Shown piece by piece: positions 5,591 through 58,683 of a DNA stretch of 64,000 nucleotides. The notes under the pieces were generated by a model. It was given only the letters and a program-made list of their open reading frames with translations. It was not told the DNA's origin and did not search any database. The stretch is taken from contig JAAILG010001560.1 in the NCBI GenBank assembly GCA_012026655.1, positions 1 through 64,000 on the forward strand, read 5' to 3'. The stretch's first letter is position 1. Every line of letters starts with the position of its first letter. The position numbers and the translations under genes were made by a program. Source of the stretch: Hydrolagus affinis. Lineage: Eukaryota.

Positions 5591-5857
5591 AAGAGAAGCC
5601 TTCAATGTAACATTTCTATACACACTTCACATGAGAAGATACACTAGAGAGCTTAATGCATTTTCAGTTTTATAGTAAATGCCTTTTGTTGTTTTGCCTC
5701 TTATGCATACATGATTAAAGTAAGATTGAAACATGATTTAAAGTGTTTTCACCCCGGAAATTTGATGAGAAATTAACCTAAATACAATTTATCAATAAAT
5801 ATTAACTTTGAATTAGTATTAATTCAGGTGCAAGACTTTCAAATGGAAAACTTGTGT

Positions 5858-6267
5858 ATTCAATTCAAGATCCTGGTGCTCACATTCAAAGCCCTCCATG
5901 GCCTCGCCCCACCCAATCTCTGTGACCTTCTAATCCTCCTAACCAACCTGCTCACCCCCTCCGCTAAGCAGACTCCGGGCTACTCCATGTCCCCCGACTC
6001 ACCCGCAGGTGAGCCTTCAGCCACAGGGCCCCCAACCGCTGGAACTCCATCCCGCACTCCCTCCACCTCGCCCCCCTTCCTAGCCTCCTTCTTGTCCCAC
6101 ATCAAGACCCTCCTCTTTGCTAGTCCCATCAGTCACCCCAAATCCCCTCCTTTCCCTCCACCCTCCCCATCCCCGATCCCAGCTCAGGTGTGAAACAATG
6201 TCCAGCGCCTCGGGACGTCCTCCTGACTTGAAAGGTACTACATCAGTGTAATTTTGTTGTTGTTATG
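5858..6267 (+). mobile_element. L2 LINE 3' end
   Basis: IQFKILVLTFKALHGLAP motif, C-rich 3' UTR, (TTG)n tail. Confidence 0.88.
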
Positions 6268-16449: not shown

Positions 16450-19400
16450 TGCTTGTTCTCATTTTATTTTGTCTGATCCTTTGAAGTCAGAAATGCAACA
16501 TTTGTAATAACCCCAAAATATAGTTTCGAAAATAGAACTGCAAGTAATTGCCCATATAAAAGAGAAAAATAGTTCACCGCCAGGGTCTTTGATGGGCAGG
16601 GGAGGCAGTTAATTTTATAAGTCTCAAAATGAAACAGTGTTATCTGAGACTGCAAATGGTGCAATATGAGACAGGTCCAGACTTAATAGGGACTATAGAG
16701 GCTGAGAAGATAGTCAAGACATAGTCAAAATGTGGCATTGCCTGCAGGAATAGTCAAACTGAAAATGGTGGGCTAAATTTTGAAAACAAAATCTGGTCTT
16801 GTACATGTCATCACAAACATAAAATATCTTATTACTACTACTGTAATTGGTGTGATCTCAATTTTCATTATACTGTACTTTTCTTTCTTGCTAACTTTTT
16901 AAATATTCTGGGTTGGACTAAGTTTACAATTTTGGAGGTGGGGGGAATAAAATAAAATCTACAATACTTCTGTAGAGGGGTTAATACAATGGCACAGTGT
17001 GAATTTAAATAAAATGTTATAAGACCTCGTCAATTACATAACAAAAATGTACTTGCTGGGAATTGTCAAGTTGCTAATCAATTAAAACAATACTTAGGAT
17101 CCAGCTAACAGATATTTACTGAGTGAATGCAGATAATTTTTAATCCCACATCAGAGCAGACACTGCTTTTTCTAGCATAGGCACAACTGAATGACACATA
17201 AAATTATTTAAAGTGCAATTTCTTACTTATAGTTTTCTCCATTATGCAAATTCAGTATTTCAGTTTATAGTTCATTCTGCATATCTATATATCTATATAT
17301 AAGTATTATTTATACCTTATTTCATTATGAGCAAAATATTGCACTTGCATGGAGCATGACATTTTTAACACAGAATTATTTATATTTAGCAAATTATAAA
17401 TCTGCAAGGACCTGGGCAACACTGAACAACAAAGAAATCAGAGTATTCAGCTGCCATTATGACATTTACACATAACTTGTATGCATAATTCAAGTTGGCT
17501 ATTCTAAAATGTAGAACACCACAACAGGACACTTATCATGACATTTACGTGTCACTTTGTGCAGTCCTGATGCATCTTAGTGCTTGCTGAATAATGAAAT
17601 CTAAAGCCTCCATAACATCTTAACTCTTTTGCTTAACTTAAATTTTAGTTTACATTTGCATGTTATCAGGCAATCACTAAAATAAAATTGAGAATATCTA
17701 TGGATAATGTACCTTTTGTTAATTTGACAAATTAAAATAGTTTTACAAAAACTAAACTTCAAAAACTAAATGATATACAGTATTATAGTTTCGATTTGTC
17801 TGGTCCTGCTCAAATCATCAAGTTTACAAATGTGACAGAGTGAAGCTAAAAGGTTTTATGATCCAAATTGGTGAGTAGTCATACTCAACTGAAATCTTAT
17901 TCAGTGATGGATATAAGCAGTTCTCAGCAATGCTTATCATTTAATCATACCTTTGTGATGATTACACAATGCAAAAGGAAATAAACAGAACAATCTTATC
18001 TGGGAGTTCCTACAATAAAGATTTTGAGACACTTTTTTAAGGGTGGATTCTCTAATTTCTCGTCCACTTAGTTTCTCTGTAGAAATCCCATCCCCGCTGG
18101 AGATAATGGCAACCTGCTTCCTGGCTTCTGCCAAACAAAAAGGTTATTTCAACTTGCCTGCAACCTTATAGAGCTACTTGGAGCTTGCTGACTCCCCTTC
18201 GCCCTCACTACACTGGTATAAGAATGTTTGGTTCAGGACTTCAAAGTGGTTGCACCAACATATCCCTATTTTGAATCTCAAAACTGCACATCCCATAACA
18301 TGTGAACTACCCGTTGCTACTTTTTACACACGTTCACAATTTCTGATATAAGAATTGTAATTTTTCCATTACACATCAAAAATAAGTATAAAGGTTTGGT
18401 TTTCTATCAAATGACGAAATATTTAGCTCATTTTTTTCTGTGAAATACAGCTGTTGAGAACCTCTGGGACTTGCATATGATTTAGAAACTGAAAAGTTAT
18501 ATCTAACTGATTGATGGAGAGATCATATTTAATGTAATACATTACCAAAAATAATTCTGGACAGTCATTAAACCAAAGGATTAAATGGTATATTTGATGC
18601 TTGAGTTGCAACAACTGATACAGCTTCTTTCATTTATCTGTCAACAATTTGAATGGGAAGTCAAACATTCTTTCTACCATGATAACCTACAGTTTAGCAT
18701 CTATTTTAGTGATGCAATTACACAGAGATTGTGCAAACTTTTGTGTATGGTCTTGTAATCTCTGAAACTGGATTTTGAGACTGTACAATCTATTCACAGA
18801 GTATTAAAAGCCATACAGGAAGATTTTCACTCAAACTGTAGGTTTTCATGGTAAAAAGAATATCACCCCATCAGTTTGATTTGGGTTCAAACTTAGCATT
18901 TTATTGTAGCCATCGATGTTAAATATATAATAATAATAATTTAAAGATATTCTGAAGTAATTAACAGGAAAGGTAGCATGTCTGCTAACTAATGTCAGTG
19001 ACAGTGCAATCATCGATTTACTCAAAACCCAGGATTCATATTCCATCAAATAGACAAAGAATACAATTTCTTTCCAAGTTTTGCCTACAGACAGCAGTAT
19101 GGAGAAGAACTGGACTATTCATTCTGGTTGTACTCACTAAGATTCTAGCAAACAACATTACTAGTGGAGAGAGAGAATTAAACCAACTTGAGAATTAAAC
19201 CAACTTGAGAGAACCTTTTCCATTTTTAAACTGCCTCAGACTTCATCTCTTTCAAATAATAAGTACAGTAGAACAGGCATTATAATGCACAATTTTACTG
19301 TATAGCTTGCAGTATTATAGAAATCATACTTTTGAAAAAATTTAACTTCAATTTATTTTTAAGATTTTCGTTCAAAGCAAACAATGTAATCACCAGATTA

Positions 19401-19980
19401 CCTACTTTTAAAGCAAGGTAACCAGTTGTCTGTTCTGTTAAGGCTCTTTCTATTCATTGGAAAAATGTTCTTCCTGCTACAACAGATTCATGCAGTTTAA
19501 TTGAAATATAAGACATTTGTATTCGCTATTTTAAAGATAGTGCAACAAACCGTTCCACAGTTGCTTTGGGAATTTGTTAGAAATCCCACTAGTCATGACA
19601 CGAATAATCTTTTACTGCTGACTGATTCACATCCAGATCATTACAGATTCATAAACTGCACAGCTGCTAATCTTTTCTTGTCCTGCTCTTCTCCACCCTG
19701 GCAATTTTTCCCCTGTATTTTGAGCAAAACTTTCTTCCAAACCAAAATGCCACAAATCATAATAATGAATCGTTTCAAGAAACTCAAAGTGTTCAAAATG
19801 TCGAGACAGTAGCTAGTCGTTGCATCAGTCAGGTATGCAGGAGCTGGATTTAGAATCAGTTCCTTAGTGAGTTAAAAGTGGACCAGGTAAAAGCAAATAG
19901 TGCCAAGTCTAGGATGATAAAACTTTTATCCTGCAGGGTATCCTGCAATGGAAAATTTTAGTAACAGGGTTTGTCTAGCT
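16450..19980 (-). other. CCSER2: Probable CCSER2 3' UTR (true end uncertain)
   Basis: Directly follows the stop codon, AT-rich, no transposon that I recognise. Minus-strand AATAAA at 19352-19357, 18900-18905 and 16463-16468. Confidence 0.5.
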
Positions 19981-20928
19981 CTAAAAACTATAGTTTGAGG
20001 GGTTGGACACATGCATCTTTGGTTTAGGAAGGCGAGAATATCTGATGGAAGTTGCCATTTTCTCTATCTGGGATTCATGCTGCTGTCCAGGACGGTCGTT
20101 TCGGGATGATTGGGGTTTCTGTGGCTTGTTTATTGGTAGATACCGAAAGTGGGGCTCATTCTGGTGACGAGTTGCCTCAGCATTCTGATTCTCTCTGATT
20201 GGTGATGCAGACTCAATCGAGGCCCCGGCAGTCTTAGTCTTTAGAAGTGATGAATACAATGATGGTCGTAGTTTAGAGATTCTCTTTTGTTCATTGTTTT
20301 GGTTTGGCAGGTTTAAGGGTATTTTTAGCTGAGATTGATGACTCTTTTCTTTCGGGCCATGTCCAATGGTTGAAGATGGTTGAACTGGACATTTTGTAGG
20401 TAAAGGAATTGTTTGAGTGACTGGAGCAGCATTCTTTCTAGATCTTACGGAGAAAGGGGACGGCAATCGTGAAGACAAGTTCTGGGTTGCAATATTTAAA
20501 TCCTTAGAAGGCTGACATTGTCTAAAGGAAAATGTGGGCTGAGAGTCTTTATTTATGGTTTCTTCTGTGAATTCCAAAGGTCCAGCGATACAGATCTGCT
20601 GCAAAGAAGCCTGATTAGGACCATGTTCCTTAGATGAAAAGTTAGGCGGAATATTTAGAATCTGCTTGCCTGTATTGTGCACTTTGCTCTTTGGAAGATT
20701 TTCAACAGAATCTTCCATCGTCAACTGTGAGGCTAAAAGAAAGCTAAGCTTGTCTGAATCCATCTGTGGGGAATCAGTAACTTTTGCGTTTTGATTGGTT
20801 TGGCAGTTTTCGGACAAAGCTTGCTCCATACACCTACTGGGGTCCTCGATATGCACTGTTTTTGCTAGTTTTTCCACGTGGAAGTCGCTTGAGCTGAGTG
20901 TGTGGCTGGAAGGCTGTAGTACTGGAGG
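19981..20928 (-). CDS. CCSER2: CCSER2 terminal coding exon, long frame (315 aa plus stop)
   Basis: Longest ORF in the window. Acceptor ctaac...ttcttcttcctgcag|CCT. Blocks PPVLQPSS, QLTM, SKLRP and RYSRLPKPKMH match the recalled long human isoform (PQVLQPSS, QLTM, SKLRP, RYSRLPKPKIH). Confidence 0.9.
   Translation of the reverse strand, partial: PPVLQPSSHTLSSSDFHVEKLAKTVHIEDPSRCMEQALSENCQTNQNAKVTDSPQMDSDKLSFLLASQLTMEDSVENLPKSKVHNTGKQILNIPPNFSSKEHGPNQASLQQICIAGPLEFTEETINKDSQPTFSFRQCQPSKDLNIATQNLSSRLPSPFSVRSRKNAAPVTQTIPLPTKCPVQPSSTIGHGPKEKSHQSQLKIPLNLPNQNNEQKRISKLRPSLYSSLLKTKTAGASIESASPIRENQNAEATRHQNEPHFRYLPINKPQKPQSSRNDRPGQQHESQIEKMATSIRYSRLPKPKMHVSNPSNYSF
20834..20928 (-). CDS. CCSER2: CCSER2 terminal exon, alternative short frame used after the 85-nt exon
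   Basis: A|CC makes Thr, then SSTTAFQPHTQLKRLPRGKTSKNSAYRGPQ and TAG at 20836-20834. Recalled human short isoform ends TSSTTAFQQPSQTHRSHPGKTNKATTYRGPQ*. Confidence 0.83.
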
Positions 20929-25205: not shown

Positions 25206-26716
25206 GCTCAATCACATAGCAGGGGTTGCTGTAGACCAAAATATATTGCTTCATGCAGTGGCGCTTACAGTGTGATTAAGTTCACGGGAAATCTTAAGAC
25301 TTCACTACTTTGTTTTCATATATAGGTATATTTGCATGCTTGTGTATTGCACATAAAAAGCACATATAATTTGTGTAAAACTTCATCATACATTGATATA
25401 ATTCTGCCGTGTAGGATTAACAATACATGCAGGATTTTGTCATTCATGCAACATGCAGGCAGCAGTGCAATATTATTTAACTGTACTGTACCACGCTTTA
25501 TCATAGAAGTAATGGACAACATCCTCATATCCTTGCATCAGGTAATGGATAGGGAGAGACAAAGAAGACAAGGAAATGGACAGTGACTTCACAAACAAAC
25601 CAATGAATTACATCAAATAATTCGGAGCACTGGATTAACATTTTAATTTGTATAAAAAAAAGTCATTAACTTTAATATATAATTTCCCTTTTCTAATGGA
25701 AGATAATCCATAAAGATTTTCTTAATAACCATAATGTATTCTTTAGTTGGCCTGTGGAAGCTTCATTCTTTAATGCATTGTTGAGCACACTGAGCTCTTC
25801 TAGCAAATTAACTATTTAAAGAGCTGTGGAAAATGTTAGGAGTAATATTTATAATCAAAGTAGATTGGAAGCTGATTGATCTGTGAGACAGATTGGAAGC
25901 CGATCGACCTGTTTAATTTAGGAGTGAAAAAAATGAAGGGAGGCTTGTCAGTTCTGTGGTTAATACCCAGAGATGCTCTTTGTGATAATCTGTTCAGCAC
26001 ACAGGACCTCCTTCTTAGGAACTATATACCTTTTACTACAGTTCCCTTTGTCTAATGCAATAGCTACTCCATTCAGAAATCAGCAGTATGATGCAACAAT
26101 GCACAATTCATTAAGTCTGATATAACTACAAATAAACACACGGTTCTGCACAAAAAGTTTAGTGATTGTGTATTTTGTAGGTGAACACGGCAGTCAATTT
26201 GCGCACTGCAGTGTTCCACAAACAGCTGTATTAGGAATGACTATTTTTTCTCATGTTGCCTCTCTTTGGATTATACATCTCTAAAGACTGATAAAGAATG
26301 GCAGACAGTCTACTCCTAGGCTTTCTTCAAATGCAGTCTTGATGCAACTACAAAGAAGTAGCAGATCAACCTCCATCCTTGTGGGGAGGGTCCTCAACTA
26401 CTCCTGGCTGGTTAGAAACTCATAAAGTGCCACCGCTTTGCATGTTGTAAAGTGTGCTCCGCAATTTAAATTCTATGGTAACAGTTATTCATTTCCATTG
26501 TTCTTTTATTTATTTCATCAACCTCCTCAACCAACGAAAAGTATCACAAGGGATCCATCTCTTTAAACTGCTTATGTATATGGATTGCACTTTTCGAAAA
26601 ATATACAAAGGTACTACAATTTACAAAGAAACTTTAATCCTCTTTAATGATCAGCACTACCTTTCTAATAATCTGGAATCTTCAGAAGGAGCAAGGGTCT
26701 TTCTGAAAGTAACCAT

Positions 26717-26850
26717 AATAATAATACTCCTTGGATTTGATATAGCACCTTATCACATCTTCTAGACATCTCAAAGCACTTCACAAAATATACTGTAAAG
26801 CGAATTGACTATGTTTTGTGGACGAAACATGGTATGCCAATTGTGCACAT
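26717..26850 (-). mobile_element. SINE 3' fragment
   Basis: Matches the reverse complement of the 57864 family tail. Confidence 0.8.
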
Positions 26851-27289
26851 AATCTAATTTTATTATGATGTCTCTTATTCCAGATGCTTTTGACTATAAA
26901 ACAGCATGAAGGAGCAAGGGGAAAATTCTTGGGCTTCACAAATGAAATATTTCTCCTAAACCATAAATATTTTATAGTTCATATTGCAAATGTGTTGATG
27001 ATAGATTAATTATTTTGACTGCCCATTGCTTCTCAGCTGTCAAAGCCAGTGCATTGTAATAAAAGCCCCCTGCTAAAATGTTGACAAAAAGTAGTTTGAA
27101 TGTATTACTCATTGGAAATAAGAAGCTGTGGATTATCATAAATTATTATTTTTTTTAAAATGCAGGTCATTGCAATGTTTTTTCCCTAAATACATTTGTT
27201 CAGAAGCTTAACCCATATAATGTCAGTCAATACCATAAAACATGGTGACTGCAAGTTCTTTTTAAAAAGAAAATATTTAACTAGGACTA

Positions 27290-27460
27290 CCTTGTATTTG
27301 ATATAGTGCTTTTCATGTATTCTAGATGTCTCAAAGCGCTTCACAGAATACTGTATAGTGAATTGACTGTATATTTGCAGTCGAAATGCAGCAGCCAATT
27401 GCGCACAGCAGTGTCCCACAAACAATCATGGATTGAAGTTTTAATTTATTATTGTTATTA
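27290..27460 (-). mobile_element. SINE 3' half
   Basis: ctcaaagcgcttcacagaata...gccaattgcgcacagcagtgtcccacaaac. Confidence 0.82.
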
Positions 27461-28222: not shown

Positions 28223-29792
28223 CAGAGCAATATTTCCACTCAAACGCACACCTGCCAATCATCCCAGTCAGTGTGACTTTGAGCTGCACTTGTAGGTCAC
28301 AATTACAGGTTGTCAATCCTACTGCAAACTCACACCTGTCAATCAGTCTATGACATTCTACAACAAATACACCATCACCCAAGGGCAACGGGCCAGTAAT
28401 TCTGAATCCTTTTTAGCAGATACTAAAAATAAAAAAATGATAAAAGCCTATGGACGGTATTTAGCGTTCATTCATTGTAGTGAATTAATATGTCTTATTA
28501 ATATGCTTGCAACATTTTAGATGTTTTTGTCAACTGATTTGCATCTTAAAAGCCTTTCATTGAAAAGAAATTGCAATGGAAGCAGTTCTTCTCCTGATAT
28601 TGTTTATTGCAATTTTTCTGCAAGGCATTTAGATAACAAAAAAAAATCCTGATTTAAGCTTGGATAATCAAACCTAACCTATCAAAACATCACTTTTTGC
28701 AAGCTTCAGCATTGAATTTCAATGAAAGGTCTCAGAATACGAGGATTTTTTTTTCCAGCAACTTGGACAAGTGCAAAACTAAATCAGGAATCCTAGGGAT
28801 GCTTAACCATGTTTGGCTTTGGATGCAACTAAAATTGTGGCACTTGTGCAATGCACAGCGGTATCAAAATACCATTTTCTACGATTTGAACAATTGATAT
28901 GTAATGGCATATTCTCCTTCACGCTACTTCTACCGAGGTCAAGTCAGAACAACACAGATAGGTTATTTTACTTTGAAAATTTGAAATTCACAATTTTTAC
29001 CCTAAAACTACGCAAACTAAGGGAACTGAACCTGGAATCTTCTACTTTATGGCAACAAGGTAAGCCATTATTAAGAAACATATAATTTGTAAAGTCTTTA
29101 ATTGGTGATCATGAGGCAGAGTATGCTCGTGGTTTCTTTATTTGAAATAAATCTTGTTATGCTGTCAAAGTGAGTCATGTTAATGGAGGAATTCCCCCTC
29201 CCCGTGGCTTGGCCTCAGGCTCCGCAACTGAGAAGCTTTCTGAGACACTGCCTGCGTGGAGGGCACTATACAAATGCAAGTTGTTGTTGGTGACATTTGA
29301 ACATTCTTTCTGCAACTCTTGAGCATTTCTGAGTCAGACATATGAGCAAAAATATAACTTCTTTCTTTCTCTATAAAGTAGATGGATTCATGAAGAAATA
29401 CTTTAATCTTTTCATGTTGACTTCATGCCATTAGAAGCATAAATTTAACACAAAATTCCTAGTACTGTATATGGCAACAGAAAATCACTTAGAATCGGCC
29501 TCCAGACACGATCCAAGTTAGCAGCTCAACACTGCATTAGTTGCTATGCAGACGTGTTACACTGGAGCCAGAACAGCACTCCAGAAATCAACATGCGTTA
29601 TGATGGGCCCATCAAAGTGAATCCAGCTGCTTAGTGGCACAACTCCAACTCCCCAGGGATGGTACTTGTAAGTAAATTAAGTGTGTGCAGCTGGGTGAAG
29701 CAGCAGACATGTGGCGCTTTGGTTACCAAAAACATAGAATGCCATAGTACAAGTGTAAATTATCTGTAAATGCAACTAGAAATGTCTAAAAT

Positions 29793-30030
29793 TATAGAAT
29801 TTATACAACACAGGAGGCTATTTAGTTATATGTGCTTGTGCCAGCTCTCTGGAAGAGCTATCCACTTGGTTTCACTTCCATATTCTTTCCCCATACTTGC
29901 TAATAGGTAAATATTTAGATAACTTCCTCTTTAAAGCTCTTAATAGATTATGTTTCAACCATGCATTTTAGGATATTCCATTCCCTTAATAATTACTGCC
30001 AGAAACTGAACAGTTTCTCCCTATTTGAAT
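29793..30030 (-). mobile_element. Old CR1 3' tail
   Basis: atagaatttatacaacacaggaggctattt...gccagctctctggaagagctatcca. Confidence 0.6.
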
Positions 30031-30037
30031 ATCTATC

Positions 30038-30440
30038 ATAACAACAACAAAATTGCACTTATATAACATCGGGAGAATGTCCCGAGGCGCTGAACAATCA
30101 GGTAGGGCCCCGAGCGGGGGGTGGGGTGGGGGGTGGGCGAGGTAGGGGAAAGAGGAAGGAGAGTGGGAGAGGGGGAAGAGTTAGTGGGGCAGCCGAAGGC
30201 GTGGTTGAAGAGGAAGGTCCTGAGACCGGCCTTGAAGGAGGAAAGGGAGGAAGCAAGGCAGAGGGGCTGCAGGATGGAGTTCCACAGTGTGGGAGCAGAG
30301 CGGCTGAAAGCCGGGCCGCCGATGGTTGGGCGGTTAGGGCGGTGCACGCGGAGTAGGCCTAAGTCCGCTGAACGAAGGGGACGGGCAGTCTGATAGGGAG
30401 ACAGTAGGTCAGAGAGATGGGCGGGGGCAAGGCCTTGAAT
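30038..30440 (-). mobile_element. L2 LINE 3' end (GC-rich, fairly young)
   Basis: (CAA)n tail; GGPAFSRSAPTLWNSI...SFKAGLRTFLF. Confidence 0.9.
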
Positions 30441-30530
30441 GGGTGGTCCAACCTTTCCGCTGTTGAGGGCAGGATACCGGATTTAAGAAACACTCCCGGG
30501 TTGCATAAGCAATATTTTAGTATTTCCTTT
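30441..30530 (+). mobile_element. Possible truncated hAT-like end
   Basis: gggtggtccaaccttt resembles hAT termini; no partner end found. Confidence 0.35.
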
Positions 30531-30678
30531 CCAGGAACCTAACCCCCAAGGATCATATAGAAATCCTAGGTTTTTAATTGTGTAATTTTATTTCATTAAA
30601 TTTTAGTTACAATGCAAACTTTAAACAATAGAAAAATTAATAGAAACTTTTAAACAATAATGCAGCCAGCTATGAACA

Positions 30679-38371: not shown

Positions 38372-38456
38372 TCGGTCGGCGTTGTAGCTGGATGGGACGC
38401 GCGTTCCTCTGGAACAAACTCTGCCAGGAAGAGGAGGACGGAGCAGAGGGCCCAGC
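38372..38456 (-). CDS. CCSER2: CCSER2 85-nt frame-shifting (probably cassette) exon, phase 0/1
   Basis: About 60-nt pyrimidine tract ending ttcctgcacag|GCT; donor CCGA|gtgagt. Encodes AGPSAPSSSSWQSLFQRNARPIQLQRRP plus 1 nt; compare recalled human GGYSAPSFSPWQGSFQGIPRTVPPHRRQ. Confidence 0.85.
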
Positions 38457-39631: not shown

Positions 39632-39994
39632 AGAATCTCTATTTCCACTCGTGGGCGAATCTGTGACTCGTGGTCACAGATTTAAAATAGTTTCAAGGCG
39701 AATTTCAACCTATACCAATATCAATGTGGATGGTGAAAATTTTGTATTAATCTATAGATACATGATGTACNNNNNNNNNNNNNNNNNNNNNNNNNNNNNN
39801 NNNNNNNNNNNNNNNNNNNNNNNNNNNNNNNNNNNNNNNNNNNNNNNNNNNNNNNNNNNNNNNNNNNNNNTATTAGGCTATGGGGAGCGGGCAGGGCAGT
39901 GGGATTGAATCGCTCTTTTCAAAGAGCCGGCACAGACTAGATGGGCCGAATGGCCTCCTTTTGTGCCGTAAAATTCTATGATTCTATGATTCTA
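39632..39994 (+). mobile_element. CR1 3' end spanning the assembly gap
   Basis: GESVTRGHRFKI before the gap; tgggccgaatggcctcct...(attctatg)n tail after it. Confidence 0.8.
39771..39870. other. Assembly gap (100 N)
   Basis: Run of N. Confidence 1.
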
Positions 39995-40960: not shown

Positions 40961-43094
40961 CACTTTTAAAAATTATGGAAAACTTCCAAAGTAAATAGAA
41001 TTGAACAATTTTCAGCAATTCTCCAATCTTGCACTTTAGGATGAAATGGTGTTAAAGGGTAAGGTTAGGTGGATTTCTGGACTTTATAATTTTCTGCTAC
41101 TATTTTAGTTTCTTCTGGATCGGTTGCACAGAGTGGCAGTCTCATTAGCTGCAGTCTCATTACATTGGGCTTAAAGCAGTGTCACAGCCTGAGCATGATG
41201 TTGCATAATCAACAGTATCTGACCTACAGCACAAACCTCATTTTAATGTCCTAAGAAACAGGAAACAACAATTATGAGTGAGGGCTCCAGCTACTAAAGT
41301 CTACCTAGTGACCTCTGATGGGGCCTGGTTATAAATGTTTCTTCTCCTCCTGTATGGTTGAACAGCTTGTTGCAACTCACTGTTTAAATCACACGTAAAG
41401 CAAGGCAATTTGGACAAGATATCAGAGAGCCGTGAGCACTCATGGAGTGCTACTCCAAAATACCTTAAGAAAGGGAATGAACACAAAGGAAGAACATTTG
41501 TGAAATAGAGCAAATTATTGAAATCTGAAAGTCCAAAGAAAATCATGCTCAAAAATGTCATCTTCGATGAATAGGAAACATCTCGGGCTTAAACGAGCCT
41601 TCACTAAATCAGCTGCATACTAAAAGGGCAATGCTTCCATAAAAACATAATATAAACATATAATTTACTGCAGATCATTATCCTTCCCTACAAGCCAACA
41701 CATCATTAACAGCATTAATGTGGCTGGTTCATAAAATGTTCGACAATGCTATTCGAATTCAACAAGATAAAGGTTGCCAAAGGTCAACGTGCCTTGTCAC
41801 TCAATCATCTACTTCTCTTTCAGTATTCATATTGAGCATTTGCTATCTAATATTAGTGGCACAACAAGGAATGTTAAAGAAAACATATCAATTCACCTTT
41901 TTCAACTCAAAAAGTAAGTTAACAATTGGTACACTCTAATACAATTTATATTGTAGGGAGAATGCAAAAGGTTGTTTTATTATTTCTTATTTGTAACATA
42001 AGGTTGGATGTGAGAAAGAATTTAGTTTCCTGTGTTTTCCCTTATGACTTATCTTGACATAATGAGATGGTCTCATTAAATTCTGACATTGAGGCAAAAA
42101 TTCAATTATTTTAAAATAGTATTCACATTTAAACTGTGATAGTAGCCATTAATGTAGATCGATAAAGTCTCATCTTTTCACAAATTACTCCTGAGGATCT
42201 GTGTAGAGGCAAGGACAGAGTAAGAGCGAACCATTTTAAATATTTTTGGTTAAATATGTAGGGACTGCAAAAGTTTGAATAAGCAGGTTTTACAGAACAA
42301 GGCTGTAGATCATTATAAATAATATTCTCCCGATTGGATGCACAGTAATTATTAAACTGCTTGCCCTAAAACCTCTGGGTAAAGTTGCACAGCTGGAGAG
42401 TTGTTGGTTGGAAGTTCAAACCAACAATATAGTTTTTATTAAAAATCCTTTCTCTTATGAGCACAATGTTATTCAACTGATGATAACAATATACAGTTTA
42501 GGTGAGCAGGATCACAGCAAATATAGAGATATAGAGAAGCAAAGCTCTAATTTTAAATTCACTACTGCTGGGTTTGCTTTTCATGGGTGGAATGTAGGTG
42601 AACCATAGTGCAATTTGCAGGTTGACTATTAGTGTAGGCTGCATTTAGAAGAGAAGAGATATCTGGACTAACCAGGAAACACCATCATGGAGGAATTGGG
42701 CTAGAAAGATGCACAGTCAAATCCCAGGGTCTGAGGGATACAGAGAGACCTCTGTGACTAAGAGAGTATAATGCAGCCAGATGAAGCGTGGATTAGGGCA
42801 GAAGTGACAGGAAAATAATAATGAGTAAAGGAGTATAGCTGAACAAGAGTAATTGAGAGGCATATGCAGCAAAGGTAGTGAACAGTTTCAGGTGTGCGTA
42901 AGGACAAAAAACAGGAGGAATAAATAACATGTATATCTATCTGCAAGATTGATGTAATGGTACAGGTTGAAAACGCCTTTATAATGCTATTTTTTATTCT
43001 GAGCAAAGTGGATCATGTAAGAAAGCAAACGTTTGGTCAAGAAAACAAACCTTTTCAAAAGACGCTAGGATAATTGATGGCTGACTGAAAGCTA

Positions 43095-44335
43095 CAAGCA
43101 ACAACAACAACAATTTGGATTTATATATAGCGCCCGCCACGCCGGATGGCGAATCAAGAGCGGTTCACAATAACGGATCCTGGGGCCAAGCCTGGGGGAG
43201 GGGGAAAAGGTGACCAAACGCGCAGTCAAAAAGAAAGGTATGTAGTTGTAACCTGGAAATGGGAAAAGAGGGCGCGAGGCGAAAGGAGTGAGGAAGGGAG
43301 TTCCAGAGCCTCGGGGGGGAGTGGCTGAAGGCACGGCCGCCAACAGTGGAATGGAGGTTTCGGGAGACAAGAAAGAGGCCAGACCCGGTAGAGCGAAGGC
43401 AACGGGTGCTGTTGTGAGGAGAGGAGGTAGGGTTTGCAGAGGAGTGGAGAGAGTTGAAAACAAGAGTGAGGATCTTGAAATCGATCCGCTCCGAGACAGG
43501 GAGCCAGTGAAGTCTGGCAAGGATTGCGGTAATCGGGGAGTGAAGTTTGGTATGGATCAGAATGCGGGTGGCAGAATTTTGAATAACCTGGATTTTATTA
43601 ATGGTGGTGGAGCGGAGACCGAGGGGGGGACATTTGAATAGTCCAACCGAGAGGTGACAAAGGCATGTGTTTTAGCACTTTTTGTGGTGAGATATTGGCG
43701 GAGATGGGCGATGCGTCGGAGCTGGAAGAAAGCAGTGCTGGTGAGGGACCGGATGTGGGGGAGGAAGGATAATTGGGGGTCAAATGTGATGCCTAAGTTG
43801 AGTACGGGTTTGGAGAGTTTTAGGGGAAGGTCGGGTAGATGGAGGAGGTGAGAGGCATGGGACTGAAGACATCGATGAGAGCCAGAGTATGGCCTCTGTC
43901 TTGTCAACATTGAGCTGAAGGAAATTCGCACTCATCCAGCTCTTGATGTCTGACAGGCAGGCTGACAGAACATCAGGGACTGGGGGTCACAAACTGGGTT
44001 GGGTATCAACCGCATATATATGGAAGTGTGCCCCATGTCTGCGGATGACATCACCAAGAGGGAGCATGCAGATAAAGAATAGAAAGGGTCCAAAGATAGA
44101 TCTTTGGGGTACCCCAAAGGCAACTGGGCAAAAGTAGGAGGAAATGTCGTTAGTAGAGATGTACTGCTGGCGGTTTGTGAGGTAGGACACAAACCAGGTG
44201 AGTGCGTTCCCACTGAGGTGGACGACGGAGGACAGGCGGTGGAGGAGGATGGCGTAATCGACTGTGTCGAAAGCAGCGGAGATGTGGGAGACAAAGGAGG
44301 CAGAGGGAGCCCTAGTCACAGATAGAGGATAGTTC
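43095..44335 (-). mobile_element. 5'-truncated L2 LINE (about 1.2 kb), frameshifted RT
   Basis: SAAFDTVD, GVPQRSIFGPFLF, YAVD (decayed YADD), NLGITFD, HAFVTSRLDYSN, (CAA)n tail. Confidence 0.93.
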
Positions 44336-45602
44336 TTTCTATCCAAAGCAGTTCTTTGCTTTTTCAAACTTGAGTTAAAAACTTGAGAAGCTTGAGAGCA
44401 ACATAACAATTGAATATTATAAGATTCTTATTCTTTATACTATAGATTTCTATTACAAAGAAAATCAATATCGCCATCATCCTAAGTACAGTAGTGTGCA
44501 CATAATATAGATGAAAGAACACCTATATCAATGTGAATTGGGAACTGAAAGTCCAAGGAATAACTTAAATGGCACTCAAAACAAACATAAAATGCATATT
44601 GTAAACTTATTATTTAATATTCTGTATTTTGGTATTTTAAATGTCCTTGAGTAAACTGGAAATGGCGCTTTAAAGAAGATCTTTAAATTTTTTAAATGGA
44701 AATAATTCAAAAAAGGATATAATTTCAGTTCATAATAATATACATACACTATAAGGAATGTAACATTTCAGATGTGAAAATCATTACATCATTGTTTCAG
44801 GCATTTACAAATGGCACCCCTACCAATAACGTTTCAGGTGACAAAACCCATTTATCAAACATATAATAACATTGGTGCACTGTACAACATATGAAGTAAG
44901 TGAGCATACTGATGATGGACTCCTCCAAATGCTTCATGTCCCCACGTTTTCAAATAAATGATTATCAGCATTAATAACGAATTACTAAATACTTATTAAA
45001 AATCTCCTTTGTAAAATAGAAATGCACAGGAACCAAAAGACCATTGTGATTTAACTCCCCAGAAAACAAACACTTGTACATAGCAATAGCGAGCATCTGA
45101 ATCGCAGTTAAAATGGTAACTGTTACTTGCTGAACTACATGTATCACAACTCCTCCAAATTTGTATATTTATTACAACCTCCAAATCTCAATTTACTGAA
45201 CAAAAAAGTGAAAATGATCTTGCACTGGACTTATTGAATGTAGATTTACTGTTAGTGGACAAATTGCTATTTTAACTGCCCAACAAATACATTATGTACC
45301 TTATTTTGAAAGATGATAATTTATAAAACTTTCAACTTTGTCCTGAAAAGTACAAATCATTAATTGATGAGCATGAATCCAGATTTTTGTTCCTTCAGCA
45401 AATGTTTTATTTTAATGGATAGTTCTACAATTTCATCTACTCTACAAGTAGAACTATCTTGGAATATGTAAAACTGCACGGTTCTTGTAAGAAGGAGATT
45501 AGCTTCTTGGGTGTATTCTAATTGCTACTCAGTTGTATTAATCAAGGATTAGATATAGAGGATATTTCAACATCTGTATTCACTCAGATGAAACAAGGAC
45601 AT

Positions 45603-46690: not shown

Positions 46691-46789
46691 ATGAGTTTCT
46701 TTATGGACAGTTTGGGTAGTTTTATCAACACGTGAAACCACTTCTCCTTTTGTGGCGTGGCCCTCTTTTTGACAATTACATTTAATGCT
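46691..46789 (-). CDS. CCSER2: CCSER2 internal coding exon (99 nt, phase 0/0) with a KxTQT motif
   Basis: Branch point TGACTAAC, pyrimidine tract, then ccacacag|AGC...CAT|gtaagt. Encodes SIKCNCQKEGHATKGEVVSRVDKTTQTVHKETH; compare recalled human ...CHQKCKEEKCTYADKYTQTP. Confidence 0.88.
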
Positions 46790-51601: not shown

Positions 51602-52745
51602 ACAACAACAATTTGCATTTATATAGCCTCATTCACACAGGACAGTGTCTCAGAGCACTTTTCTACTCCCAGATCATTCTCAAGCCCCAAGACATGCCAA
51701 AATCCTGCACCATTACCTACCACCTCCTCCACGCCCCTTTTGAAGCACCCTTGATCCTCACCTCTAATGCCAAGAGCAAAGAAGTCCTGAACTTTTTTAT
51801 CTCTAAGACAGATAACAGCCGCCTGCCTGCCTCCTCCTGTTCCCCCCCACCACTTTTTTGCCTACCATGGTTTTCGCCCAGCCCAAACACAGAGACAGCC
51901 CCCGCCAAAGAAACAAATGACGTCTTCTCCTTATGACCAGGTGTTCCTCTACCTCCTCGACCTATCCACCACATTCAACACAGTCGATCACACTATCTTC
52001 CTCTACCACCTTTCCTCCCGAATCCACTTAAGTGGAACCTCTCATGGTTTGAGTCTGACTTAACAGACGACAATACATCTTTTTCCTTCTGTCCTCACCC
52101 GGTCACCTGTGGGGTAACCCCAAGGCTCCATCCTTGGCCCTTTTCTAACCTTAGTTATCTGTGTCCTCTCGATGATGTTATCCGCAGATATGAGGTCAAC
52201 TTATTTGGATGATACCCTAATCTACTTCTCCTGCTCTAGCTGTGACTCCTGGCCCACTGATATCCTGTCAGTTTGTTTGAAGGACATCAAAGCCTGGATA
52301 AGCACTAATTTCCTGCAGCTGAATATTGTTATGATGGAAACCATACTCTTTGGCTTGCGTCAACGTTCTCTCTCATGCAGATCTGAAGGCCTCAACTTCC
52401 CTAGGCTTCCCTCAGACTCACTGAACCCGTGTGCAACTTACGCGTCAGTTTGAATCCCCAGCTTTCCATTCTACCCCACATCCACTTCCTGACCATGACC
52501 ACTTTTTTCCACCTCCATCACATCACCTGCCTCCGTCTGTATCATAGAAGAAAATTCTATTCCTAAATAGTGGGGCTTGATTAAAAGTTTCACCAAAAAT
52601 GGGGTTGAGGTATGAGCATGTAATATTCTGGAGGTGGAAGAAGGCAGCTTCGGAAAAAGTCCAGTTGTGAGGTTTGAAAGGAAATCCAAGGTTGCTCAGT
52701 GCCTGGTTCAGCCTGAGTGAGCAGCACTGGAGATTAAATCAGAGG
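51602..52745. mobile_element. Mosaic of L2 fragments (minus tail, plus-strand RT piece about 51680-52535, minus piece about 52590-52745)
   Basis: FNTVDH, YLDDTLIY, CLKDIKAWISTNFLQLN. Confidence 0.8.
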
Positions 52746-58596: not shown

Positions 58597-58683
58597 CAGT
58601 TTCTGTTGAAGCTGTGTAATCATCTCATCCTTCCTTTTCATTTCTTCCTGCAGCTCTTTGATCTCATTGAGAAGCTCCTCCGT
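58597..58683 (-). CDS. CCSER2: CCSER2 internal coding exon (87 nt, phase 0/0), coiled coil
   Basis: Minus strand reads atgaacag|ACGGAG...AAACTG|gtaagt and encodes TEELLNEIKELQEEMKRKDEMITQLQQKL. This resembles human CCSER2 NEDLLNEIKQLKDEIKKKDEKIQLLELQL as recalled. Not in the ORF track. Confidence 0.9.

What the first reader, a model, noticed from the sequence alone, without database searches (positions are those of the whole stretch)
20834..20928. Dual-coding 95 nt with both frames apparently conserved from cartilaginous fish to human
Seen: the same bases read PPVLQPSSHTLSSSDFHVEKLAKTVHIEDP in one frame and (T)SSTTAFQPHTQLKRLPRGKTSKNSAYRGPQ* in another. The second frame is absent from the ORF track. 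Against the recalled human sequence it has the same length, an identical start (TSSTTAFQ) and an identical end (YRGPQ*), and looks at least as conserved as the long frame. Deeply conserved overlapping frames are rare in vertebrate genes. Inference: the basic YRGPQ-COOH tail is functional, and its partner is unknown to me.
Basis: partly seen in the sequence, partly recalled or inferred. Interest (0 to 1): 0.8.

Follow-up and report, generated by a model that had tools for sequence, protein, structure and literature searches.

The report
Triple-frame last exon of CCSER2
The start of the last exon of the microtubule-tip gene CCSER2 in a cartilaginous fish can be read in three frames, set by two optional upstream exons, which likely lets splicing swap the protein's tail; this is real and under selection, but a 2026 preprint already reports it.

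Summary
It is the 5' end of the last exon of CCSER2 (minus strand; best hit Callorhinchus, 82%). On a 22-tip tree, 51 of 106 inferred changes are silent in the RGPQ frame (27% expected) and only 17 in the long frame, so the short frame carries the strongest constraint. A relative's contig shows the 40-nt exon joined to the last exon. All three frames, with selection and peptide support, are already in bioRxiv 10.64898/2026.05.28.727796. Additions not found in print: lamprey gene models carry two of the frames and the RGPQ end; crocodilians have lost the last nine residues; RBFOX-type motifs follow the 40-nt exon. The tail's partner remains unknown. Already known; modest interest.

The parts
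20834..20928 (-). 5' end of the last CCSER2 exon, read in the long frame and in the short (RGPQ) frame; short-frame stop TAG at 20836-20834
   Evidence: 26 of 30 residues identical to the Callorhinchus 836-aa isoform P0005
20865..20928 (-). Triple-coding part: third frame of 21 codons ending in TAG at 20867-20865
   Evidence: annotated isoforms P0006, P0015, P0021, P0023, P0048
20837..20848 (-). Codons for RGPQ; all 5 inferred changes outside crocodilians are silent in the short frame and change the long frame
19981..20928 (-). Long frame of the last exon, 315 aa plus stop; poorly conserved between its ends
20026..20037 (-). Conserved SxIP-type motif (SRLP) near the end of the long frame; absent from both short isoforms
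25492..25531 (-). Exon D, 40 nt, optional; together with exon C it shifts the last exon into the third frame
   Evidence: junction to the last exon seen in a contig of run X3; a human CCSER2 exon of 40 nt is listed in PMC9770155 Table S7
25426..25457 (-). Three TGCATG (RBFOX-type) motifs 35-66 nt downstream of exon D; a fourth at 25257-25252
   Evidence: function inferred
38372..38456 (-). Exon C, 85 nt, optional; shifts the last exon into the RGPQ frame
   Evidence: human 85-nt and zebrafish 82-nt orthologous exons in PMC9770155 Table S7
46691..46789 (-). Exon B, 99 nt, phase 0-0, last exon shared by the three isoforms
58597..58683 (-). Exon A, 87 nt, phase 0-0, coiled-coil segment; skipped in frame in a sawshark isoform (P0002 against P0009)

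Best explanation
Two optional exons of 85 and 40 nt set the frame in which the last CCSER2 exon is read, giving three protein tails, and this likely works as a splice-controlled tail switch on a microtubule plus-end protein. Shown from sequence: exon sizes and phases, the three frames, and that only the long frame keeps the C-terminal SxIP motif. Shown by comparison: the RGPQ frame is under purifying selection at protein level, and the third frame keeps its stop. From papers on human and mouse: CCSER2 tracks plus ends through EB1-binding SxIP motifs and binds NDEL1 through residues 657-687, upstream of all three tails. Inferred: the long form binds EB1 through both ends. The RGPQ form keeps the NDEL1 site and the N-terminal SxIP but swaps 315 poorly conserved residues for a 59-residue basic tail (8 K/R, no D/E). 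That tail would favour the microtubule lattice or acidic tubulin tails, and its free RGPQ end would act as a short C-terminal binding motif. Inferred: exon D is switched on by RBFOX-type factors in neurons or muscle and replaces the RGPQ end. All stops lie in the last exon, so none of the forms would be an NMD target. Odds: three-frame anatomy about 0.97; protein-level function of the RGPQ tail about 0.85; the tail switch changing microtubule or EB1 binding about 0.6.
For: Exon map with GT/AG sites and phases 0-0, 0-1, 1-2. In 22 of 22 species with annotated long and short isoforms the two peptides fit one DNA, against 20 of 414 cross-species pairs. 51 of 106 inferred changes in nt 1-92 are silent in the short frame (27% expected; omega-like 0.41), 17 in the long frame (omega-like 1.9). 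The short-frame stop occurs as TAG, TAA and TGA at one position; the third-frame stop as TAG or TAA in 22 of 22 tips. Simulations reject long-frame-only selection. Long-frame identity to tetrapods is 49% over codons 1-31 and 15% over 32-290. In crocodilians, which have an earlier short-frame stop, the R codon of RGPQ has changed, the only such change among the 22 tips. The D-to-last junction is in a contig of run X3, and contigs of X1 and X2 end exactly at 20928. Literature: three frames, selection, peptides; deleting both SxIP regions abolishes microtubule binding; SxIP motifs 1 and 4, NDEL1 site; 85-nt and 40-nt exons respond to RBPMS2 loss; no NMD predicted.
Against: No experiment on the short tails was found; the preprint says the isoform functions are unknown. 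Two mouse isoforms both localised to plus ends (their frames were not determined), so the switch is not on/off. Three crocodilian genera lack the last nine residues; Aotus, Phyllostomus hastatus and a frog each change one of the last four residues. The third frame shows no excess of silent changes (about 22 observed, 20 expected). The one pairwise DNA comparison is not significant (5 of 95 against 19 of 214 differences, p 0.36). B-to-last, C-to-last and C-to-D junctions were not seen in reads, and no RNA of this species was laid. Ortholog DNA was inferred from peptide pairs, not read.
Confidence: 0.62

Rival explanations
1. The short frames are truncation devices: what matters is removing the SxIP-bearing long tail without triggering NMD, and the tail sequence is only loosely constrained.
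For: Crocodilians tolerate loss of the last nine residues. The middle of the tail varies. One unnamed protein also stops early (P0287).
Against: A mere truncation needs no fixed stop position or RGPQ. RGPQ ends 100 of 113 short-frame tails, is present in lamprey, and its codons change only at silent positions.
Confidence: 0.2
2. Conservation reflects DNA or RNA constraint (exonic splicing signals near the acceptor) plus selection on the long frame; the short frame hitchhikes.
For: The first 27 nt are the most conserved (12 inferred changes, 0.44 per nt, against 1.25-1.59 further on) and lie next to a regulated acceptor. The preprint warns of this artefact for short overlaps.
Against: Changes fall at short-frame silent positions and avoid long-frame silent positions, also in the dual-only part (18 of 35 silent in the short frame, p 0.005). 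Three different stop codons occupy one position. A region-wise null also fails.
Confidence: 0.06
3. The RGPQ end is a C-terminal degron that makes the short isoform short-lived.
For: An invariant extreme C-terminus is typical of C-degrons (own knowledge). TRIM7 recognises a C-terminal glutamine (search listing and abstract starts).
Against: The TRIM7 abstract start describes a C-terminal helix with a hydrophobic residue; G-P-Q fits that poorly. From own knowledge the end does not match the -GG, -RG, RxxG or -EE classes. Not tested.
Confidence: 0.12

Closest known systems
Human CCSER2 (GCAP14, FAM190B) triple-coding last exon; bioRxiv 10.64898/2026.05.28.727796
   Same: Same gene and exon, three C-termini, conserved to jawed vertebrates; human exons of 85 and 40 nt match the window's sizes; also listed as dual-coding region 361 in PMC13160074 Table S1.
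   Different: Only the species. The read sections of the preprint do not mention the lamprey dual frame, the crocodilian truncation or the RBFOX-type motifs; they mention premature stops in bats for one frame, which my bat sequences did not show.
Callorhinchus milii CCSER2 isoforms of 1089, 836 and 839 aa
   Same: All three tails are annotated; 26/31, 27/31 and 16/21 identical to the window.
   Different: About 18% protein divergence in the long tail; the window has a second SRLP at 20472 that Callorhinchus lacks.
Other splice-derived multi-frame C-termini (SH2B1, NDEL1, DCLK1, MAP4, MARK4)
   Same: A frame-shifting upstream exon changes the frame of a last exon; many are microtubule or neurite genes.
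   Different: No sequence relationship was tested; in CCSER2 the short frame, not the long one, is the most constrained across the overlap.
CCSER1-like paralogues (label recalled, not from a call)
   Same: Share the coiled-coil region and the TQT anchor.
   Different: The five such proteins seen end in a different C-terminus without RGPQ.

Membership tests
CCSER2 orthologue | Best protein hits are annotated CCSER2 | tested here: met
   (3 of 3 hits)
CCSER2 orthologue | Same late exon sizes as human (85 nt and 40 nt optional exons) | tested here: met
CCSER2 orthologue | N-terminal SxIP and NDEL1-binding segment in this genome | not tested
   They lie outside the window; present in Callorhinchus
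Splice-derived dual or triple coding region under selection | Frame-shifting upstream exons with canonical splice sites | tested here: met
Splice-derived dual or triple coding region under selection | Frames and stop positions preserved across species | tested here: met
   short frame 20 of 22 tips, third frame 22 of 22; crocodilians are the exception
Splice-derived dual or triple coding region under selection | Purifying selection on the short (RGPQ) frame | tested here: met
Splice-derived dual or triple coding region under selection | Purifying selection on third-frame residues | tested here: inconclusive
   stop kept more often than the null (2-42 of 2000) but no excess of silent changes; the preprint reports significance
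Splice-derived dual or triple coding region under selection | Spliced junctions in RNA | tested here: inconclusive
   D-to-last seen in one contig of a relative, in a run only guessed to be RNA; other junctions rest on RefSeq models
Splice-derived dual or triple coding region under selection | Frame-specific peptides | not testable with these tools
   reported for human in the preprint
SxIP plus-end tracking protein (long isoform) | S/T-x-I/L-P motif in a basic, serine-rich context, conserved | tested here: met
   SRLP near the end of the long frame in 21 of 22 tips, Hypanus excepted
SxIP plus-end tracking protein (long isoform) | EB1 binding and comet tracking | not testable with these tools
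   shown for human protein in PMC10486078 and bioRxiv 10.1101/2024.06.13.598865
TRIM7 C-terminal glutamine degron | C-terminal helix ending in a hydrophobic residue before glutamine | tested here: not met
   tail ends G-P-Q; requirement taken from an abstract start only

The most novel reading that the evidence does not exclude
The free RGPQ end is a binding motif as old as vertebrates: lamprey models already have the 28-codon-plus-one frame-shifting exon, both frames and the RGPQ end. It would be read by a still unknown partner, and the RBFOX-type 40-nt exon, a later addition in jawed vertebrates, would switch the motif off in neurons or muscle. Crocodilians are a natural knockout of the motif.
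Probability: 0.35. Interest if true: 0.55.

Novelty: already known. Interest (0 to 1): 0.27.

Why it matters
It is a clean case of one exon encoding three conserved protein ends, and the short isoform, not the longest, carries the strongest constraint. The human plus-end studies map SxIP motifs that, by my comparison, lie partly in the long tail, so the two short forms of this dynein and NDEL1 regulator are open to direct test. The existence and selection of the three frames are published, which caps the interest. The lamprey extension and the crocodilian loss are small, checkable additions.

Tried and rejected
Pfam scan of the long frame and four other window ORFs: 0 families. PDB sequence search with the 836-aa isoform: nothing below E 0.5. 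Run search: no holder on record as RNA. Laying four runs on 19.1 kb: joint tables were swamped by repeats, and no exon junction was listed. Pairwise overlap-against-downstream test with the relative's contig: not significant. First simulation allowed a root without the short-frame stop and was biased; it was redone, which is the one cited. Whether the lamprey gene is CCSER2 or precedes the CCSER1/2 split was not resolved (best 78 bits to CCSER2, 70 to CCSER1-like). The main text of the other dual-coding preprint does not name CCSER2; its table does. The FEBS Lett paper on mouse Gcap14 is not held. Searches for isoform function found none. Earlier findings of this scan: none. No fold or complex prediction was run, as there is no candidate partner and the tails are short and likely disordered.

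Full report
Observation. Position 20928 follows a pyrimidine tract and CAG, and the long frame continues for 315 codons to 19981. That frame finds three proteins, all CCSER2 of cartilaginous fishes, the best from Callorhinchus milii at 82%.

Anatomy. tblastn of the Callorhinchus isoforms places four upstream exons in the window, with boundaries read from the sequence: A 58683-58597 (87 nt), B 46789-46691 (99 nt), C 38456-38372 (85 nt), D 25531-25492 (40 nt), all with AG and GT ends. B joined to the last exon keeps the long frame. B-C adds one base and gives the 31-residue tail ending RGPQ. B-C-D adds two bases and gives a 21-residue third tail that stops at 20865. The first 64 nt are thus triple-coding and the next 31 dual-coding. 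The three forms are annotated in Callorhinchus as 1089, 836 and 839 aa. In PMC9770155 (one passage, one section and Table S7 rows seen) a human 85-nt exon with an 82-nt zebrafish orthologue, and a human 40-nt exon, respond to RBPMS2 loss; the 85/82-nt exon is marked UP in human and DOWN in zebrafish. Three TGCATG motifs lie 35-66 nt after exon D, against 0.44 per kb on that strand; RBFOX proteins promote micro-exon inclusion in brain, muscle and heart (PMC4317164, abstract seen). This was noticed after the fact and is an inference.

RNA evidence. No holder on record as RNA was listed. In contigs of organism A, a relative about 91% identical in runs guessed to be RNA, one contig (X3, depth 137) leaves the last exon into letters that match exon D. 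Contigs of X1 and X2 stop exactly at 20928, intron-reading contigs have lower depth, and X4 does not cover the site. All four runs are one study. The exon before D was not visible. The five differences listed inside the overlap match five of the six that I inferred for Callorhinchus; this checks the inference method and means organism A is not an independent lineage.

Conservation. Among 369 fetched proteins, 113 carry a recognisable short-frame tail: 103 are 31 residues long and 100 end in RGPQ (81 Y, 16 H, 2 N, 1 S before it). The 13 others are 7 crocodilian tails stopping at 22 residues, 2 GGPQ, 2 RGLQ, 1 RGPK and 1 unnamed early stop. 59 carry the third tail, 51 of them 21 residues long. 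These count proteins, not species, and two searches used the tail as query (120 of 215 hits listed), so the sample leans towards intact tails. The human protein was not fetched; orangutan and macaque stand in.

Which frame is selected. For 22 species with annotated long and short isoforms, the two peptides fit one DNA in every case, mostly at 93-94 of 96 positions; only 20 of 414 cross-species pairs do. I mapped changes by parsimony on a fixed tree (topology from own knowledge) of the window plus 21 species. Lamprey was left out because its tail is three codons shorter; teleosts, amphibians and Chiloscyllium plagiosum lacked paired isoforms; crocodilian changes beyond their stop were not counted. 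Of 106 changes in nt 1-92, 51 are silent in the short frame (27% expected) and 17 in the long frame; all 5 changes in the RGPQ codons are silent in the short frame and alter the long one. Changes silent in both frames cannot be seen, but few are expected. The short stop appears as TAG, TAA and TGA; the third stop is in place in 22 of 22 tips. Under long-frame-only selection, across 12 settings of 2000 runs, at most 10 runs kept the short length in 20 tips, none kept RGPQ-stop in 20, at most 2 reached the observed silent fraction, and 2-42 kept the third stop in all 22. The long frame is weakly conserved beyond the overlap (15% identity to tetrapods over codons 32-290) until its SRLP motif. The third frame shows no excess of silent changes, so my support for it rests on its stop, on exon D and on the junction.

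Two additions. A Lampetra fluviatilis model (XP_078731501.1) and an L. planeri model end in a 28-residue tail with HRGPQ after a 28-residue exon-C equivalent; the longer L. fluviatilis isoform fits the same DNA in the long frame, and the third frame has no stop at the usual place. This would date the dual frame before the split of jawless and jawed vertebrates. These are automatic models, the long lamprey tail lacks the SxIP end, and orthology to CCSER2 rather than CCSER1 is unresolved. Second, Alligator, Gavialis and Crocodylus stop the short frame nine residues early. A search for CCSER2 with lamprey returned only the preprint, which dates the frames to jawed vertebrates.

Mechanism. Human CCSER2 tracks plus ends; removing both SxIP regions abolishes microtubule binding (PMC10486078, parts 1-2 of 3 read). 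It has four such motifs, of which 1 and 4 are the most conserved, and binds NDEL1 through residues 657-687 (bioRxiv 10.1101/2024.06.13.598865, passages and one section). In the fetched orthologues one motif sits at residue 13 of all full-length isoforms and one at the end of the long frame only; matching these to motifs 1 and 4 is my inference. The RGPQ form replaces the long tail by 59 residues with 8 K/R and no D/E in shark, mammal, bird and lamprey. I therefore read the locus as a splice-controlled tail switch. Against a strict switch, two mouse isoforms both reached plus ends (PMC9974511, passages). No partner for RGPQ is known to me or found in the searches.

What is known. bioRxiv 10.64898/2026.05.28.727796 (abstract, all CCSER2 passages, sections 8, 16, 25, 27 read; supplements closed) reports CCSER2 as one of two genes with three frames under selection and with peptides, conserved across jawed vertebrates. 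PMC13160074 Table S1 lists it as a dual-coding region without NMD.

Verdict. Real, selected, triple-coding and already known. Interest 0.27.

Noticed in passing
window 25492-25531 (-): Exon D is also open in phase 0, so joining B-D-last without exon C would give the RGPQ frame with a different lead-in; not seen in any annotated isoform here.
   Followed up: no
window 25532-25545 (-): The acceptor of exon D has a TGC between the pyrimidine tract and the AG, resembling SRRM3/4-type enhancers (label recalled).
   Followed up: no
proteins P0099, P0104, P0128, P0146 and others: Many mammalian models use a 16-codon longer exon C (alternative donor) that keeps the downstream frames; the window's intron is open for a similar stretch but the sequence differs.
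   Followed up: no
proteins P0117, P0323, P0341, P0345: Mammal and crocodilian models also use a shorter exon C, 12 or so codons less at its start, again keeping the frames.
   Followed up: no
proteins P0133, P0342-P0352: Three crocodilian genera end the short frame nine residues early and have changed the R codon of the former RGPQ.
   Followed up: partly
proteins P0281, P0366, P0367: Lamprey models show both frames and the RGPQ end; the long model runs into an arginine-rich tail without SxIP, possibly a model error.
   Followed up: partly
protein P0225: An unnamed 681-aa protein starts its tail like the long frame and ends in HRGPQ, as if the frames had been fused by a deletion.
   Followed up: no
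window 43092-44427 (-), 30036-30482 (-), 52118-52453 (+), 5777-6193 (+): Broken ORFs resembling LINE reverse-transcriptase fragments (by eye); very high-copy repeats at about 26700-27450 and 29250-30550.
   Followed up: no
window 39771-39870: A 100-N assembly gap in the intron between exons B and C; an exon hidden there cannot be excluded.
   Followed up: no
window 16468-19501 (-): Seven AATAAA or ATTAAA hexamers downstream of the long stop; the relative's contigs suggest a last exon of up to about 3.7 kb.
   Followed up: partly
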